A stretch of 64,000 bases of DNA. Source: Escherichia phage vB_EcoM_G2248. The first letter of the stretch is position 1. Every line of letters starts with the position of its first letter. The notes beneath the pieces are model-generated. The model did not search any database. It was not told the DNA's origin and saw nothing but the letters and a program-made list of their open reading frames with translations. Positions 37,675 to 54,345 of this stretch are shown here, piece by piece. The stretch lies in the sequence record MK327932.1; one strand, given 5' to 3'. Made by a program: the position numbers and the translations under genes.

Positions 37675-38241
37675 ATGGTTGAAATTCTTCCGATGAGTTC
37701 AAAATTGGAGGATATCAGCGAGCGAGAAATCTTTGAGGTGGTGTTCTCTTATAAAGCAACGCCACCGGATGCAAATACCACATACACGATTAAAGAGTTT
37801 AAGATCAGCGAGTATCGCCCTAATAAGGGCGTTACCGTTGAAGAAACTAAAATATCTGGTGAGTATAGGGATAGTTTTTCGCTTGGCGCGGATTCTCTTA
37901 AATATATAACGAAAGATCGAATTAAAAAATCTGCCGGAAGTTTTGATGATTTACCAGATCCAACTACCGCAGATCTATATTATTTTAACGCTCCTACACG
38001 TCTACAGGAGGTTTATACTTATAAAGTAACCCTAACCTATATCCAATCTGTTTCAGAGTCTCCTGGTGGTTCTGGTGAAGGAAATAGTGGTGGTTCCAAT
38101 AGCCGAGAGGGTGCTGGTGAAACTAATCCGCCTCCGGTAGTAACCGAGCACACAATAGAGAAAGTTTATACTCAAACCGTTTTTGGAAATTGGGATGTGT
38201 GGGCGCAGCAACTAAGAGATTATGTACATAGGGGTGTTTAA
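37675..38241 (+). CDS. hypothetical baseplate-region protein (gp5.1 position)
   Basis: 188-aa ORF between genes 5 and 5.4. Confidence 0.5.
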
Positions 38242-38534
38242 TGGCTGGATTATCCTACGATAAAGCTAAAACTACAGGGCACGGAAACTACCCACCTACT
38301 GTAATTAATGCAACTCAATCGAAGGTATTTGTTGAGGGTATCCCTGTATTAGTAGAAGGAGACCCAATTACACCACACACAAAAACAACAAAGCCTTATG
38401 ATACACACGGGGGAACTACGGTCGCCAGTACCCCGAAAGTCTTTGTTACCGGAAAGAAAGCAATTCAAATGGCAGATCGTATTAGCTGTGGCGATACCGT
38501 CGCTATGGCATCACCGAAGGTTTATATCAAATGA
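38241..38534 (+). CDS. 5.4: PAAR-repeat baseplate spike tip protein gp5.4
   Basis: 97 aa, size and position as T4 gp5.4. Confidence 0.7.
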
Positions 38535-45191: not shown

Positions 45192-46031
45192 ATGGCACGA
45201 CTTTCTAAACAAGAGCAAAAATTACACGATCGGGCGATGGAGTTGATTAATTCAGATCGTCCATTGACATTTGAAGAAAAAGAATTTTGCTATAACAACT
45301 ATCATGGCGATGGACTAGGTGGTTCCGGTGCATTCTTTACCCCAGAATGGCTTGCCTGGGATTTTACCATTGATGCATATTGCACCGGAAAAGTATTAGA
45401 TCTTTGTGCGGGGATCGGTCGCTTATCTTTTTGTATGTTACATCGTTGTAAGCCAGAAAAGATCGTATGCGTCGAACTCAATCCAGAATTTGCGCGGATC
45501 GGCAAGCGACTATTACCGGAGGCAGAATGGATCACCAGCGATGTATTCGAATTTGAGTCAAACGAGAAATTCGATGTTGTAATTAGCAATCCACCTTTCG
45601 GGAAAATCAATACTACCAACACAAAGGATGTATTTGAATATACTGGCGGTGAGTTTGAATTTAAAGTTATGACGTTAGGCCAGAAGTTTGCCGATGTAGG
45701 TTACTTTATTGTTCCTTCTAGTTCCGCTGGTTTTGCATATTCCGGCAGACCTTATTATGATGAATCAGTGAAGTCTAATAAATATCTAAAATGGAGCAAA
45801 CAAACTGGTTTGGTGACTTATGCCGGATGTGGGATCGATACATCAGTCTATCGCGATGAATGGCATAATACCAACGTTTTAACAGAAGTGGTTGAGGTTC
45901 GGTATTACGAGAAAGAAGCCGTAGAAGCGCCTAAATCGCGTCCTAACGAACAGATAGAAGAAAGTAAGGAGATTACCTTACCGGAACAAGAAACAGCGTC
46001 TGGGACGCTCTCAGACTTGTTTGACATTTAA
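45192..46031 (+). CDS. gamma-class N6-adenine methyltransferase (M.TaqI/HsdM-like motifs)
   Basis: FFTPEWLAWDF (motif X-like), VLDLCAGIGRLS (motif I), VVISNPPFG (motif IV), in that order. Confidence 0.65.
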   Translation: MARLSKQEQKLHDRAMELINSDRPLTFEEKEFCYNNYHGDGLGGSGAFFTPEWLAWDFTIDAYCTGKVLDLCAGIGRLSFCMLHRCKPEKIVCVELNPEFARIGKRLLPEAEWITSDVFEFESNEKFDVVISNPPFGKINTTNTKDVFEYTGGEFEFKVMTLGQKFADVGYFIVPSSSAGFAYSGRPYYDESVKSNKYLKWSKQTGLVTYAGCGIDTSVYRDEWHNTNVLTEVVEVRYYEKEAVEAPKSRPNEQIEESKEITLPEQETASGTLSDLFDI

Positions 46032-46071: not shown

Positions 46072-46079
46072 TATAAATA
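46072..46079 (+). promoter_or_regulatory. late promoter TATAAATA for gene 9
   Basis: Exact TATAAATA 28 nt upstream of ATG 46107. Confidence 0.6.
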
Positions 46080-49416: not shown

Positions 49417-50820
49417 ATGAATAACACTATTAATCACGTAAAAGACGATGCACAGTATGTTAAGTTTGACCCTACCGGAAATTGGCCTAGCAATATAAAA
49501 AACGTACAAGCGGCATTAGCCGCTATTCAGGGGTTTGCTATTGCAGGTCTTCCAACGGCAACCGAAGAAACAGCGGGTATTGCTGAAATTGCTACTCAAA
49601 AAGAAGTAGATGATGGGTTGGATGGAACTAAAATTGTTACCCCAAAAACATTGGCTGTTAAGCTGTCAAGACCGGACGCAACAAAATTTGTTAAAGGGAT
49701 CACTCGCTATGCTAATAACGACGAAGCTATGGGCGATACTCCAAATATTGCAATTGGTCCTGATACATTAACCCATGTATTCGAGAAGAAGAAAGCAACG
49801 GAAACCGTACAGGGTACAATTAAAATTTGTTCTATGGATGCAGCAAAAATAGGTAGCGATGACACTATGGCGGTTACGCCTAAAAAGATGCACGCTGCTA
49901 TTGCTCAGATTGTTCCTGGGTTGATTCCAGAACAAAACACGGCGACCGAGTCCCGTGAGGGTTTAGTTAGACTGGCGACAAGCCAACAAACGCTTGCTGG
50001 TACTATCAGAGAAGGATTTGCCGTTAGTCCATATGCATTTTCCAACGCAAGAGCAAATGAAAATCAGGCGGGTACGGTTAAAATTGCCTCATCCCAACAA
50101 ATGATTGACGGTAATGACAACACAGTAGTAGTATCAGCACAAAAATTTGCGAACACTAAAGCAACCACTGGACAATTCGGTGTTGTTAAGCTAACAGATA
50201 ATCCCGGTTCCGGTGAAGCAAATGCTGCGTTATCTGCAAATGCTCGTGTATTGCCTCTAAGCGGTGGTGTCGTTACTGGTGATGTGTATCGTCATAGCGG
50301 AGGCGACGGAAACCAGTTTACCACTAAAAACGAAATGGATGCATGGTGTATGCCAATTGGTGCAATTATTCTAACTGCATTCAATAGCAATGATCATGGC
50401 GCATTTAAAATTTGTAACGGGCAATGGTTGAATAAACACCAATATCCTACGCTATTTGCTCGCATCGGATTTACATATGGTGGTGACGGTGGAGACCATT
50501 TCGCTGTTCCAGATATGCGCGGTCTTGTTGCTCGTGGGTGCGATTGGGGAAGAGGTTTAGACCCAGGTCGTGGATTTGGTACTTATCAAGACGACACCAT
50601 GCAACATATGACAGGTAACTTCCCTGTAGCTAACCGCTATCGCGGTTGGACTGGTGGTGCATTTACCATCACAGGTGGTCAATGGAGCACGAACTATAAA
50701 AACGGTGGCGGCGATGATTGGGGTAGTATTGTTAACTTTGACAGCGCAAGACAGGTTAGAACGTCTGGCGAAACTCGCGTTAAAAGCCTTGCATTAAACT
50801 ACGTTATAAGGGTACAATAA
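49417..50820 (+). CDS. 12: short tail fiber protein gp12
   Basis: YVKFDPT, ATESREGLVRLAT, PDMRGLVARG and C-terminal LALNYVIRVQ match T4 gp12. Confidence 0.9.
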   Translation: MNNTINHVKDDAQYVKFDPTGNWPSNIKNVQAALAAIQGFAIAGLPTATEETAGIAEIATQKEVDDGLDGTKIVTPKTLAVKLSRPDATKFVKGITRYANNDEAMGDTPNIAIGPDTLTHVFEKKKATETVQGTIKICSMDAAKIGSDDTMAVTPKKMHAAIAQIVPGLIPEQNTATESREGLVRLATSQQTLAGTIREGFAVSPYAFSNARANENQAGTVKIASSQQMIDGNDNTVVVSAQKFANTKATTGQFGVVKLTDNPGSGEANAALSANARVLPLSGGVVTGDVYRHSGGDGNQFTTKNEMDAWCMPIGAIILTAFNSNDHGAFKICNGQWLNKHQYPTLFARIGFTYGGDGGDHFAVPDMRGLVARGCDWGRGLDPGRGFGTYQDDTMQHMTGNFPVANRYRGWTGGAFTITGGQWSTNYKNGGGDDWGSIVNFDSARQVRTSGETRVKSLALNYVIRVQ

Positions 50821-52589
50821 TGATCGAACAATTAAACATTCGAAAGATCCCTAACGTCGATGGTGTCCCCGGAGAGGGACAACATTCTATTAGCTGGATT
50901 AAAAATGGTGAATGTCTAAGCGCAGCAACCACAGAAACAGGACACGAGGGGACGCTTAACCGCGCCCCTTATGCGATTCAAGAAAATATTGTTCGTCTGG
51001 ATGAAAATTCTAAGACAACGGTAACAAAAGTTAACGAAGTTGTTACAGCAGTTAATGATATTAAAACTACTTTAGGCGCGGTTGCTGATGGTAGTATTAT
51101 TGATATTGTCAATCAAACTATTGCAAAGGTTGAGTCTGTAGAAGAAAATTTAGGAGAAACTTCAAGGACATTACAAACCACAGTAGATGAACTGGCGGAG
51201 ACAGGAAAGAAAATTGGTGTTCGTCCGGCAGCAGATCCGAGTACACGAACAATATATGATGATATTTCTTTCATCAAACAAGAATTGGGTGCTTTCCCTA
51301 ACTTCAACATCAACGGTTATCCAGATCCAGGTAGTTCCGGTTCCGGTATCAAATATCGAGTTATCCAGAATACGGAAGCATTAAACAACCACGGTCAGCG
51401 AATCCGCCAACTAGAAAACGACTGGCAAGATTCTGACGTTGGAGAGCTAACAAAACAAGTTAACAAAATGCGAAGCGAGCTAGGCGACCCATCACTAGCA
51501 ACACAGGACAATGTTTATCTTCGTCTTCGTACCAACACTCGCAATATCGCTAGTATATCAAACGAAGTTCAGGAAGTAAAGAAAGCGATTCTATTTGAAT
51601 CAATTCCTGATATCGGTACTAAAGTAACCAAGCTACAATCTGATTATACACAGCTTAATGATGAAGTCAACGGCGTTGACGCTGGTATCCGTCCTCGTTT
51701 AACTCGTCTGGAAAATAAGATTGGCAATCCTCAATCCGCTGGAAGTATTGATTATCGATTGACTAATCAAGAACGGGAATTTGTAGATCTTAAATCTATT
51801 GTCGGTGTCAGTGGTGCTGATGGCCTACGTGGTGAGGTTGCACGAATCACTAACACCGTCGGCACGGATAACGAGCGTCACACAATCGCTGGTCGACTGA
51901 AAATCGTCGAAAACACGCAAGGGCGTTTAGAAGCAAACGTGCAGGATATCGAGCAAATGATCGGCAATCGAGATTCCGGTCTAATCGCTGGGGTTATTAA
52001 GCTGTCAAGCGACATGTACGGCAATCCAGAAGGAAGCACGCAGTTTGAACAAGATGGGATCGTGAAAACTGTTAAGGCATTGAGCACGTCAAATGAAAGC
52101 AAGATAACAGACGTTCCTGATGATGGGTTCCACTATCTCCGCAAACACGGAGAATGGGTCCAAGTTGCGTGGGCTGCTGGTGCATTTAAAAACACCACTC
52201 AGATTGATCTTACGCTAGACGAACAAGACCAATACAAAGGAATCCCGCTTACTGACATGACCGCAGAAGTTCCAGTGCGTGGATTGGTTAAGAGCGAATC
52301 TCTTGTTACGGTTAACGACAAAGGCTTATTCCGTTGTGTTTTCCGTTGTTCTGTACACGCGGCACATAACGCTACTTTCGTAGTCGGTATTGCTAAAAAT
52401 GGTCAGATTGTACATGAGGTACGAAATGGTCATTATGGAACTGATGAATTAATTAGCTATTCTACCAGTGCTTTCCTAAATATTGAAAAGGGCGACCGGA
52501 TCGATATTCGTATTAAGGGTGTATCCGTAGAAGCATTAGCGCAACCGCTACAAATTAAAGAGTTCCTCTTTGGAATTTCTCCGGTATAA
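50820..52589 (+). CDS. wac: fibritin (whisker protein) with an extra C-terminal domain
   Basis: Coiled-coil heptads; foldon-like GFHYLRKHGEWVQV followed by about 140 additional residues. Confidence 0.8.
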   Translation: MIEQLNIRKIPNVDGVPGEGQHSISWIKNGECLSAATTETGHEGTLNRAPYAIQENIVRLDENSKTTVTKVNEVVTAVNDIKTTLGAVADGSIIDIVNQTIAKVESVEENLGETSRTLQTTVDELAETGKKIGVRPAADPSTRTIYDDISFIKQELGAFPNFNINGYPDPGSSGSGIKYRVIQNTEALNNHGQRIRQLENDWQDSDVGELTKQVNKMRSELGDPSLATQDNVYLRLRTNTRNIASISNEVQEVKKAILFESIPDIGTKVTKLQSDYTQLNDEVNGVDAGIRPRLTRLENKIGNPQSAGSIDYRLTNQEREFVDLKSIVGVSGADGLRGEVARITNTVGTDNERHTIAGRLKIVENTQGRLEANVQDIEQMIGNRDSGLIAGVIKLSSDMYGNPEGSTQFEQDGIVKTVKALSTSNESKITDVPDDGFHYLRKHGEWVQVAWAAGAFKNTTQIDLTLDEQDQYKGIPLTDMTAEVPVRGLVKSESLVTVNDKGLFRCVFRCSVHAAHNATFVVGIAKNGQIVHEVRNGHYGTDELISYSTSAFLNIEKGDRIDIRIKGVSVEALAQPLQIKEFLFGISPV

Positions 52590-52597
52590 GAAATTAA

Positions 52598-52621
52598 AGG
52601 GGCGTTAAGCCCCTTTTTCGT
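52598..52621 (+). terminator. rho-independent terminator after wac
   Basis: Hairpin AGGGGCGTTAAGCCCCT followed by TTTTCGTTT. Confidence 0.65.
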
Positions 52622-52635
52622 TTATAGGTGATATT

Positions 52636-53568
52636 ATGTCAGGATATGTAACCAATAACCCAAGAGAATTAAAAGACGCTATTCTGCGTCGTTTAGGCGC
52701 ACCAGTAATTAACGTAGAAGTCACAGAAGACCAGATTTACGATTGTATTCAGAGAGCACTAGAACTCTATGGGGAATATCATTTCGATGGTGTGAATAAA
52801 GGATATAAAGTATTTCGTGTTAGTGCAGAGCAAGCGCAACACGGGGTATTTGATTTAAGCGATTCTGGAGTATTCGCAGTAACTAAAATAATTCGAACAA
52901 ACGTAGGTAGCGCGGCTACGATGGATGGTACTGCCGTTTATCCGTGGTTTACTGACTTTCTGTTGGGTTTAGCGGGTGTAAATGGCGGTTTAGGATCTGG
53001 CTGTAGTAAATTTTATGGTCCAAATGCAATGGGCGGTGATCTGGGATATTTCGAACAGCTTATGAGCTATCGCGCAACTATGCAAAACATGCTTAATCCT
53101 CTTCCCGATTACTGGTATAACAGCGCAAACGGACAACTTAAGATTACAGGAAATTTTCGAGAAGGTGATCTCATTGTTGTTGAATTATATGTTAAAAGCT
53201 ATGTAGATGTTCCTGATATGATCGGCGCGGTTGCTGGCTATGCCCATGCAGGAGGATGTTCTACCGCTGGCGGGATTAGTGCCGTTTATGATAACCCAAC
53301 CGCAGGATTGAGCGGTATTTCGGCAGGAATGGGACCAATTAGAGAAAACAAACAGGGCGCATATAATAACCGTTGGGTGAAAGATATGGCTACCGCTTTC
53401 ACTAAGGAGGTGTGGGGGTCCATCATGGCTAAACATCAAGGTCTGCAATTACCTGGCGGTGTCACTGTTGATGGTATCCGAATCATTGAAGAAGCACGCG
53501 CCGATATTGAGAAATTGCGACAAGAACTAGAATTATTAGATCCTCCGTTCGGCATCCTCATGATTTGA
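52636..53568 (+). CDS. 13: neck protein gp13
   Basis: Strong resemblance to T4 gp13 throughout ([23 protein letters not shown]..., C-terminal LDPPFGIL). Confidence 0.9.
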
Positions 53569-53574
53569 TTTATT

Positions 53575-53590
53575 GGGGGAGTATTCCCCC
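53575..53590 (+). promoter_or_regulatory. intergenic RNA hairpin GGGGGAGTATTCCCCC between genes 13 and 14
   Basis: Perfect palindrome with no T-run; probable mRNA structural element. Confidence 0.4.
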
Positions 53591-53604
53591 ATTTGGAGTA
53601 ACAT

Positions 53605-54345
53605 ATGTTTAACAACACTCTTTTTGCTCGCCTTGAATCGCAAAAGGATTATGAGAATACACGACAAACAGAGATTCTTAATCCTTATGTGAACTTTCAC
53701 AAATATACAAATACTCAGACGTTAGCCGACGTTATGGTCGCCGAAGCTATTCAGATGCGAGGTGTAGAATTATATTACATCCCTCGTGAATTTGTCAAAC
53801 CAGATATGATATTTGGTGAGGATGTTCAAAGCAAATTTACTAAAGCATGGAAATTTGCGGCTTATATTAACTCATTTGATGGGTATGAAGGAGCGGGTAA
53901 CTTCTTCTCTAGTTTCGGTTATCAAGCCAATGATGAACTAACTTTTACGGTTAACCCCAACCTATTCAAGCATCAAGTAGATGATCAAGAGCCAAAATCA
54001 GGTGACTTGATTTATATTCCAATGAGTAATGATTTATTTGAAATCTCATATGTAGAGCCATATCAGCCGTTTTTTCAGGCTGGCAAAAATGCCATGCGTA
54101 AAATTATTGCAGAGAAATTCGTGTATAGCGGCGAGGAATTGCGACCAGAATTACAACGCAATGAGGGAATTAATGTTGATGAGTTTGCGGATCTGGACCT
54201 TGCACCGATCACTAATCTGGACGGATTAACAGATATCAACTTAGAACAGTACAAAGAAGATAAGCAATTCAGAAGCGAAGGACAAGATTTTATTGACCCG
54301 TTTGATCCTATTAATGGCAAGGGTTCACCTTTTGCTAATTTTTGA
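53605..54345 (+). CDS. 14: neck protein gp14
   Basis: 246 aa, synteny and size. Confidence 0.8.

What the first reader, a model, noticed from the sequence alone, without database searches (positions are those of the whole stretch)
52110..52589. Fibritin carries an extra ~140-aa domain after the foldon
T4 fibritin ends at the foldon trimerisation motif. Here a foldon-like GFHYLRKHGEWVQV is followed by about 140 more residues with beta-rich character (...RCVFRCSVHAAHNATFVVGIAKNGQIVHEVRNGHYGTDELISYSTSAF...). A distal globular domain on the whiskers could act as an adhesin or environmental sensor.
Basis: partly seen in the sequence, partly recalled or inferred. Interest (0 to 1): 0.45.

Follow-up and report, generated by a model that had tools for sequence, protein, structure and literature searches.

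The report
RB49-type fibritin: foldon plus C1q-like head
The neck-whisker protein of this RB49-like coliphage keeps a T4-type foldon and then adds a roughly 136-residue beta-sandwich head with a C1q/TNF-like fold; this extended whisker tip is a published feature of RB49-type phages, so the finding is real but largely already known.

Summary
The window comes from a Krischvirus (RB49-like T4-type coliphage, 99.7% identical to KFS-EC fibritin). Its wac gene (50820-52589, 589 aa) lies between genes 12 and 13. Residues 427-453 are a genuine foldon homologue: 11 of 23 residues match T4, and the peptide alone passes the Pfam Fibritin_C threshold. The following 136 residues (454-589) are all-beta, not coiled coil.

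The extension is present in all 57 Krischvirus records. It is also present, at 17-30% identity, in fibritins of Muldoonvirus, Roskildevirus, other Serratia phages and one metagenomic T4-like phage.

Published work (Letarov 2005; Letarov & Krisch 2013) already defines the "RB49-type" fibritin with an expanded C-terminal domain needed for trimerisation. This analysis adds three modest points: the foldon is retained rather than replaced, the appended domain has a C1q/TNF-like fold, and the head core has been swapped between Krischvirus lineages by recombination.

The most likely role is a trimerisation nucleus and long-tail-fibre docking tip. An adhesin role is not excluded and was not tested.

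The parts
50820..52589 (+). wac gene (fibritin, neck whisker), 589 aa plus stop codon
   Evidence: ORF list. PHROG 1056 'fibritin neck whisker' E 1.5e-180 over residues 1-582. 99.7% aa identity to KFS-EC fibritin and 77% to RB49 wac.
50820..50969 (+). N-terminal neck-attachment domain (about residues 1-50)
   Evidence: Residues 7-84 align with T4 fibritin N-terminal constructs 1ox3 and 2ibl, E about 2e-14. It is highly conserved in three distant fibritins. The function is taken from the T4 literature (PMC3797505).
50970..52097 (+). Fibrous rod (about residues 51-426), homologous to the segmented coiled coil of T4 fibritin
   Evidence: Collinear alignment with T4 fibritin 6-432, E 1e-50. The coiled-coil nature is inferred from that homology. 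The heptad pattern was not computed here.
52098..52178 (+). Foldon-like motif (about residues 427-453, SKITDVPDDGFHYLRKHGEWVQVAWAA)
   Evidence: 11 of 23 residues identical to T4 foldon 458-480. The peptide alone hits Pfam Fibritin_C at 25.2 bits, above the cut-off of 21. A beta-hairpin is predicted at 438-442/445-450 with low confidence. P, Y, R and W are invariant across 11 fibritins from four or more genera.
52179..52586 (+). Post-foldon head domain (about residues 454-589), predicted C1q/TNF-like jelly roll
52596..52616 (+). Terminator-like hairpin directly after the wac stop codon (AAAGGGGC-GTTAA-GCCCCTTT, then a T-rich tail)
   Evidence: Consensus scan: 8 pairs, 5 of them G-C. Sequence read. 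Function not tested.

Best explanation
This is the RB49-type variant of the T4-family neck-whisker protein fibritin. Its parts, in order, are a conserved N-terminal neck-binding domain, a long trimeric coiled-coil rod, a retained foldon-like beta-hairpin motif, and a roughly 136-residue C-terminal head with a C1q/TNF/BclA-like jelly-roll fold.

Shown here: the architecture, the foldon homology, the fold class (from a medium-confidence monomer model), and the conservation of the module in several genera of enterobacterial T4-like phages.

Inferred: three heads pack around the fibre's three-fold axis, as C1q, TNF and BclA heads do. There they would act as the C-terminal trimerisation and folding nucleus. 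This fits published biochemistry showing that RB49 fibritin, unlike T4 and JS98 fibritin, needs sequences in its expanded C-terminal domain to fold.

Also inferred: the head forms the distal whisker tip that docks the knee region of the long tail fibre. It would assist fibre attachment and hold fibres retracted, as the T4 whisker tip does. Its partner would be the correspondingly enlarged RB49-type gp36.
For: - Identity and locus.
- Foldon homology. P, Y, R and W are invariant in 11 diverged fibritins.
- All-beta head and fold class. Weak but consistent Pfam C1q and BclA_C matches.
- The module is ancient and always in wac. It is found in 57 Krischvirus records and in P0004, which sits in gp10-gp17 synteny. 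It is also in Serratia, Cronobacter and Erwinia phage fibritins of 590-595 aa. hhalign of the RB49-type head against the 92A1 head gives Prob 94%, E 1e-7 over 133 columns.
- Purifying selection: head dN/dS is 0.13-0.4, and head dN (0.150) equals rod dN (0.154) against RB49. This resembles a structural or virion-internal interface rather than a hypervariable adhesin.
- Literature: RB49 fibritin needs sequences in its expanded C-terminal domain to fold and trimerise. In T4 the fibritin C-terminus contacts the long-tail-fibre knee (PMC3797505).
- RB49 gp36 is 496 aa, and T4-type gp36 matches only its first ~171 residues. The extended gp36 region occurs at >=80% coverage in 69 records, drawn from the same Krischvirus, Serratia and Cronobacter phages listed in both searches as carrying the RB49-type head (69 records).
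Against: - No trimer model or complex model could be run. Trimeric packing and long-tail-fibre docking are inferences.
- The monomer model is only medium confidence (mean pLDDT 61.6, pTM 0.62).
- The co-distribution of head type and gp36 type is confounded by shared ancestry.
- Within Krischvirus there is no fine covariation. Recombinants such as ECD7, JK32 and PHB13 combine a JSE-type head core with a 98-99.8% RB49-type gp36.
- No sequence-level membership in C1q or BclA_C was reached.
- The wac-gp36 covariation claim of Letarov 2005 is recalled from memory. That paper could not be read.
Confidence: 0.6

Rival explanations
1. The head is a lectin-like or cell-surface adhesin. In this reading the whisker tips bind host or environmental glycans (LPS, capsule, mucus) and give the virion a second, reversible attachment or sensing organ, independent of or in addition to holding the long tail fibres.
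For: - The best structural matches are receptor-binding heads of phage fibres: cyanophage A4 tail fibre, A-1(L) short-tail-fibre cell-wall-binding domain, lactococcal phage 1358 RBP, TM4 gp23 and lambda gpJ. TNF-like lectins and BclA also match.
- The A-1(L) stem-CBD construct binds host cells (PMC10966104).
- Letarov & Krisch argue that at least the Aeh1 fibritin may take part in host recognition.
- The head core has been exchanged as a cassette between Krischvirus lineages.
Against: - Host-range differences and host-range mutants of RB49-like phages map to gp38.
- The head is under purifying selection and evolves no faster in protein sequence than the rod. This is unlike gp37/gp38 tips.
- No binding site or ligand can be inferred from the present model.
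Confidence: 0.15
2. The head is only a folding and trimerisation cap, an intramolecular chaperone or registration knob for the coiled coil, with no binding partner. In this reading the long tail fibre is contacted by other parts of the whisker, or not at all in RB49-like phages.
For: - Literature: RB49 fibritin requires its expanded C-terminal domain for folding and trimerisation.
- C1q, BclA and collagen X NC1 heads are classic C-terminal trimerisation nuclei (established knowledge; they are the fold matches).
- There is no fine head/gp36 covariation within the genus.
Against: - A retained, highly conserved foldon already provides a trimerisation motif, so a 136-aa domain kept across several genera only for folding is uneconomical.
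- In T4 it is the C-terminal tip that touches the fibre knee.
Confidence: 0.2
3. The extension is an annotation or assembly artefact: a read-through, frameshift or fusion with a downstream gene.
For: None. The only hint was two 110-aa database proteins (P0001, P0002) that consist of the head alone.
Against: - The same 589-aa ORF occurs in all five Krischvirus genomes aligned, without gaps, and in 57 records overall. Fibritins of 590-595 aa occur in other genera.
- gp13 follows normally after a terminator-like hairpin.
- P0002 is a gene-call artefact of a 100-N scaffold gap inside wac.
Confidence: 0.01

Closest known systems
RB49-type fibritin (phage RB49 wac, AAP04366.2; Letarov et al. 2005; Letarov & Krisch 2013)
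   Same: Same gene, same locus, same 589-aa length, 77% aa identity overall and in the head. The published description is an expanded, non-T4 C-terminal domain required for folding.
   Different: The window carries the JSE/KFS-EC allele. Its rod is only 64-86% nt identical to RB49 although the flanking gp13 is 97-100% identical. The accessible literature calls the C-terminus 'alien' or 'unrelated to T4 Wac', whereas here a foldon homologue is clearly retained upstream of the added domain.
T4 fibritin (PDB 1aa0, 2bsg, 3j2o; foldon 1rfo-type constructs)
   Same: N-terminal domain, segmented rod and foldon motif are homologous (E 1e-50; foldon 11 of 23 identical). Same position between genes 12 and 13.
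   Different: T4 fibritin (487 aa) ends a few residues after the foldon. Here 136 further residues form a separate beta domain. The T4 foldon alone nucleates trimerisation, whereas RB49 fibritin reportedly needs the extra domain.
C1q/TNF superfamily heads, including Bacillus BclA, ExsF and BxpB (Pfam C1q PF00386, BclA_C PF18573)
   Different: There is no significant sequence similarity (C1q E 0.038, below the 23.7-bit cut-off; PDB profile searches negative). The stalk is an alpha-helical coiled coil plus foldon, not a collagen triple helix. The trimer was not modelled.
Cyanophage A-1(L) short tail fibre gp33 stem-CBD (PDB 8KE9) and cyanophage A4 tail fibre (9K09)
   Different: They are tail fibres (A-1(L) gp33 is baseplate-attached) and receptor-binding proteins, not neck whiskers. 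Sequence identity is 10%. Host binding is shown for A-1(L) gp33 but not for this protein.
JS98-type fibritin (two foldon motifs separated by a coiled-coil spacer)
   Same: It is another fibritin in which a foldon motif is internal rather than terminal.
   Different: In JS98 the sequence after the first foldon is more coiled coil plus a second foldon. Here it is a globular beta domain.

Membership tests
T4-family fibritin (Wac) | N-terminal ~50-aa neck-binding domain homologous to T4 Wac | tested here: met
   Residues 7-84 align with T4 N-terminal constructs, E about 2e-14.
T4-family fibritin (Wac) | Long rod homologous to the segmented trimeric coiled coil | tested here: met
   Residues 7-427 align with T4 6-432, E 1e-50. 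PHROG 1056 E 1.5e-180. Heptad periodicity itself was not computed.
T4-family fibritin (Wac) | Gene located between gene 12 (short tail fibre) and gene 13 (neck) | tested here: met
   ORF order gp11-gp12-wac-gp13-gp14-gp15. Same order in the annotated KFS-EC and RB49 records.
T4-type (sensu stricto) fibritin | Foldon is the extreme C-terminus | tested here: not met
   The foldon lies at 427-453 and 136 residues follow it.
RB49-type fibritin (Letarov & Krisch classification) | Expanded C-terminal domain homologous to that of RB49 wac | tested here: met
   The head is 77% identical to RB49 and aligns without gaps.
Foldon motif (Pfam Fibritin_C, C-terminal part) | Sequence match to the foldon part of the profile, with the key P, Y, R and W residues | tested here: met
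   The peptide alone scores 25.2 bits against a cut-off of 21, at profile positions 68-91 of 93. P, Y, R and W are invariant in 11 fibritins.
Foldon motif | Autonomous trimerisation of the ~27-residue peptide | not testable with these tools
   The literature states that only T4 and JS98 fibritins fold with the small foldon alone (PMC3797505).
C1q/TNF-like jelly-roll superfamily | Jelly-roll beta-sandwich fold superimposable on C1q, TNF and BclA heads | tested here: met
C1q/TNF-like jelly-roll superfamily | Significant sequence match to Pfam C1q or BclA_C | tested here: not met
   C1q E 0.038 (14.7 bits against a cut-off of 23.7). BclA_C E 0.045, with the best family member at 3e-4. PDB profile searches found only Cbln1 at E 1.3.
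C1q/TNF-like jelly-roll superfamily | Homotrimer around a three-fold axis | not testable with these tools
   Only monomer prediction was available. A trimer is inferred from the trimeric rod.
Phage receptor-binding head / adhesin | Demonstrated or predicted ligand-binding site; rapid diversification | tested here: inconclusive
   dN/dS is 0.13-0.4 and head dN equals rod dN, which argues against diversification. A head cassette has been exchanged.

The most novel reading that the evidence does not exclude
The C1q/TNF-like head on the six whisker tips of RB49-type phages is a lectin-like sensor. It would bind bacterial surface polysaccharide or another environmental ligand, so that ligand binding at the neck, and not only pH or ionic conditions, releases the long tail fibres. 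That would be a second host-sensing organ in a T4-type virion.
Probability: 0.12. Interest if true: 0.55.

Novelty: already known. Interest (0 to 1): 0.2.

Why it matters
Fibritin controls whether T4-type phages expose their long tail fibres, and its foldon is one of the most widely used trimerisation tags in protein engineering.

Knowing that RB49-type whiskers keep the foldon and add a C1q/TNF-like head gives a concrete structural hypothesis for two published observations. One is that these fibritins need their larger C-terminus to fold. The other is that their gp36 knee protein is enlarged.

It also identifies a compact module (coiled coil, foldon, jelly-roll head) that could be tested as a fibre-docking or ligand-binding element in therapeutic RB49-like phages.

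As a discovery it is incremental. The extra domain has been described since 2005, and the sequence is 99.7% identical to an annotated fibritin.

Tried and rejected
- Word-indexed protein search with the head found only two 110-aa fragments. One, P0002, is a gene-call artefact of a scaffold gap; P0001, on a 927-bp contig, was not checked. The same search with the P0004 head found nothing. This tool was uninformative here.
- The exhaustive HMMER scan of 1.84 billion representatives gave two real clusters, P0003 and P0004. It also gave two repeat-driven false positives (P0005 and P0006, with 9 and 6 stretches of low-complexity tandem repeats), which I rejected. It missed the Serratia, Cronobacter and Erwinia homologues later found by tblastn from phage 92A1.
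- Sequence searches of the head against PDB chains found nothing meaningful, whether as a single sequence or as 6- and 11-member profiles. The hits (RlpA, ribosomal L15, NCAM Ig) were all E > 0.04 and were rejected as chance.
- The single-sequence AlphaFold model was poor (pLDDT 51). I used it only as a first lead and repeated the prediction with a 5-row alignment (pLDDT 61.6).
- I tested head/gp36 covariation within Krischvirus. The gp36 allele follows the genomic background, not the head allele: RB49-rod/JSE-head recombinants carry 98-99.8% RB49-type gp36. This gives no support, but the test is weak because the head alleles are 83-93% identical.
- Letarov et al. 2005 could not be retrieved. 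What I say about it rests on citing papers and my memory of the abstract.
- There is no T4 late-promoter consensus (TATAAATA) immediately upstream of wac. The nearest is at 46072, before gene 9.

Full report
**What is there**

The window is part of a Krischvirus (RB49-like, "pseudo-T-even") coliphage genome. The 589-aa ORF at 50820..52589 (+) is 99.7% identical to the annotated fibritin of Escherichia virus KFS-EC. It is 94-97% identical to the JSE-group fibritins and 77-81% identical to RB49, Phi1 and ECD7 fibritins. It lies in the canonical late-gene order gp9-gp10-gp11-gp12-wac-gp13-gp14-gp15-gp16-gp17. PHROG 1056 "fibritin neck whisker" matches over residues 1-582 (E 1.5e-180). A terminator-like hairpin (52596-52616) follows the stop codon, and gene 13 starts at 52636.

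**Check of the observation**

- Residues 7-427 align collinearly with T4 fibritin residues 6-432 (E 1e-50).
- Residues 427-449 (SKITDVPDDGFHYLRKHGEWVQV) align with the T4 foldon at 458-480 ([21 protein letters not shown]..), 11 of 23 identical.
- T4 fibritin is 487 aa, so it stops just after the foldon.
- Pfam Fibritin_C covers residues 368-450 (E 1.8e-24). A 35-residue peptide containing only the foldon region still passes the family's gathering threshold (25.2 bits against 21; profile positions 68-91 of 93).
- After the foldon the ORF runs on for about 136 residues (454-589; window 52179-52586). Two AlphaFold runs predict this part as all-beta, and both place a hairpin on the foldon at 438-442/445-450, although that part of the models has low confidence.

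**Conservation and distribution**

- Five Krischvirus fibritins align over all 589 positions without a gap.
- tblastn with the head alone finds it in 57 phage records. All are Krischvirus and all hits are in wac.
- An exhaustive HMMER scan of 1.84 billion representative proteins found one further real cluster, P0004: 591 aa, 31% identical in the head. It sits in gp10-gp11-gp12-wac-gp13...gp17 synteny on a metagenomic contig. Two other hits in that scan were tandem-repeat artefacts.
- Following a lead from gp36, I found that Serratia phage 92A1 has a 591-aa fibritin with the same layout.
- Searching with the 92A1 foldon-plus-head region recovers 69 records: Krischvirus, eight Serratia phage records (92A1, WSPA, 4S, PS2, Muldoon, SP1), Cronobacter phage VP8 and three Erwinia phage records, of which only IT22 (Roskildevirus) was examined.
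- hhalign of the RB49-type head profile against the 92A1 head gives Prob 94%, E 1e-7 over 133 columns.
- In the 11-sequence alignment, the invariant residues are the foldon's P, Y, R and W plus D, G, N and G in the head. The foldon is thus the best-conserved element of the C-terminal third.

The foldon-plus-head module is therefore old. It is confined to fibritins and shared by several genera of enterobacterial T4-like phages.

**Fold of the extra domain**

- The single-sequence model was weak (pLDDT 51), but Foldseek against the PDB already returned almost only C1q/TNF-type trimeric jelly rolls. These included C1QL1 (TM 0.67), collagen X NC1, Cbln1, 4-1BBL, BxpB, the lambda gpJ receptor-binding domain and BC2L-C.
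- A second model built on a 5-row alignment reached pLDDT 61.6 and pTM 0.62, with 65-85 in the domain core.
- The viral structure library returned phage and giant-virus collagen/C1q fibre proteins. Its top hit was a 594-aa protein at 24% identity, probably a Serratia-phage fibritin.
- At sequence level the only Pfam families that appear for the window's head are C1q (E 0.038) and BclA_C (E 0.045). BclA_C matches 4 of 11 family members (best 3e-4), and all matches are below threshold.
- PDB sequence and profile searches were negative.

I conclude that the domain has a C1q/TNF/BclA-like fold. Sequence-level membership in Pfam C1q is not demonstrated, and trimeric packing is inferred, not modelled.

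**What is already known**

Letarov & Krisch (PMC3797505) list RB49 as one of about eight fibritin C-terminal types. They state that only T4 and JS98 fibritins fold with the small foldon motifs, and that the others, RB49 included, need additional sequences in their expanded C-terminal domain. They also state that the T4 fibritin C-terminus contacts the knee of the long tail fibre.

Efimov et al. [quoted passage not shown]

The original paper (Letarov et al. 2005, J Bacteriol 187:1055) could not be read here. From memory, its abstract reports that new gpwac C-termini are accompanied by new gp36 C-termini.

A full-text search for fibritin together with C1q found no paper assigning this fold. So the existence of the extra domain is established knowledge. 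The retained foldon and the C1q-like fold appear to be refinements of it.

**Mechanism**

The best-supported reading is that the head is a trimeric C-terminal knob with two roles. It nucleates and registers the coiled coil, and it forms the distal tip that docks the long-tail-fibre knee.

Support for this reading:
- C1q, collagen X NC1 and BclA heads are classic C-terminal trimerisation nuclei of fibrous stalks (established knowledge; they are the fold matches).
- Published biochemistry shows the folding requirement.
- The head is under purifying selection. dN/dS is 0.13-0.4, and against RB49 head dN (0.150) equals rod dN (0.154).
- RB49-type gp36 is 496 aa, of which T4-type gp36 matches only the first ~171 residues.
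- The extended gp36 region occurs in 69 records at >=80% coverage. The records listed include the same Krischvirus, Serratia and Cronobacter phages that carry the RB49-type head.

Caveats:
- This co-distribution is confounded by common descent.
- Within Krischvirus the head allele and the gp36 allele do not covary. ECD7-like recombinants carry a JSE-type head core with an RB49-type gp36.
- No multimer or complex prediction was possible.

**Rivals**

- Adhesin or lectin role. The closest structural matches are receptor-binding fibre heads, and the A-1(L) stem-CBD binds host cells. Against this, RB49-group host range and host-range mutants map to gp38, and the head is not hypervariable.
- Pure folding cap without a partner.
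- Annotation artefact. This is excluded by the conservation of the ORF. The 110-aa "head-only" protein P0002 arises from a 100-N scaffold gap.

**Recombination**

Sliding-window comparison shows that wac is a divergence hotspot. The window differs from RB49 by 14-54% at nucleotide level across wac, while gene 13 directly downstream is 97-100% identical.

ECD7 wac is 99% RB49-like up to about window position 52240 (residue ~475). From about 52250 to the stop it is 99% JSE-like and about 96% identical to the window. The head core has thus been exchanged between allelic lineages by homologous recombination. The breakpoint lies just ahead of a low-confidence loop of the model (residues 478-494).

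This qualifies the published view that fibritin C-terminal swapping has ceased. Swapping between types may have stopped, but allelic exchange within a type has not.

**Verdict**

The feature is the known RB49-type fibritin C-terminal domain. This analysis adds three points: the foldon is retained, the fold is C1q/TNF-like, and the module occurs in a wider set of genera. Interest is low to moderate.

Noticed in passing
window 50670-53568 (wac and gene 13), compared with L001-L004: wac is a divergence hotspot next to a nearly identical gene 13: 46-90% nt identity to RB49 across wac against 97-100% in the 5' part of gene 13. ECD7 wac is a recombinant. It is RB49-like up to about 52240 and JSE-like from about 52250 (residue ~477) to the stop, so the head core moved as a cassette. 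The window also dips to 80-89% identity to JSE at 51795-51975 and 52065-52290.
   Followed up: yes
window 53235-53460 (3' part of gene 13): There is a patch of lower identity inside the otherwise conserved gene 13. The window is about 81% identical to all four comparators at 53280-53369, and JSE drops to 74-76% at 53325-53460. This suggests further small recombination patches.
   Followed up: no
window 53568-53605 and 38241-38531, compared with KFS-EC (L005 27364-28179 and 11429-11968): The closest relative, KFS-EC, has a homing endonuclease between genes 13 and 14 and an HNH endonuclease between the gene after gene 5 and gene 5.4. By coordinate offsets (869 and 558 nt missing) the window lacks both. 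ECD7 has a SegC homing endonuclease after gene 13. Mobile endonuclease content therefore varies around this locus.
   Followed up: partly
window 52596-52616 (+): A terminator-like G+C-rich hairpin followed by a T-rich tail lies directly after the wac stop codon, 20 nt upstream of the gene 13 start. The same palindrome also scores on the minus strand.
   Followed up: partly
window 45192-46031 (+): An ORF between baseplate genes 8 and 9 corresponds to a gene annotated as DNA methyltransferase in KFS-EC (L005 18934-19773). It is a non-structural insertion inside the baseplate gene cluster.
   Followed up: no
L008 25157-26647 (RB49 gene 36); L016 6109-9057 (Serratia phage 92A1): RB49-type gp36 is 496 aa, and T4-type gp36 matches only residues 1-171. 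In Serratia phage 92A1 the homologue is a 982-aa protein, so the organisation of the long-tail-fibre knee differs. Parts of the gp36 extension also match Klebsiella and Erwinia phage fibres and the T5 L-shaped tail fibre.
   Followed up: partly
L007 1409-3001 (ENA scaffold) and proteins P0001/P0002: Two 110-aa 'head-only' proteins are in the public protein collection. P0002 is a gene-call artefact caused by a 100-N scaffold gap inside wac, not an independent small gene. P0001, on a 927-bp contig, was not checked.
   Followed up: yes
BFVD hit A0A1J0MHA5 (Klebsiella phage KPV15, 159 aa): A free-standing 159-aa uncharacterised protein of a T4-like Klebsiella phage has the same predicted fold as the whisker head (TM 0.59-0.64).
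   Followed up: no
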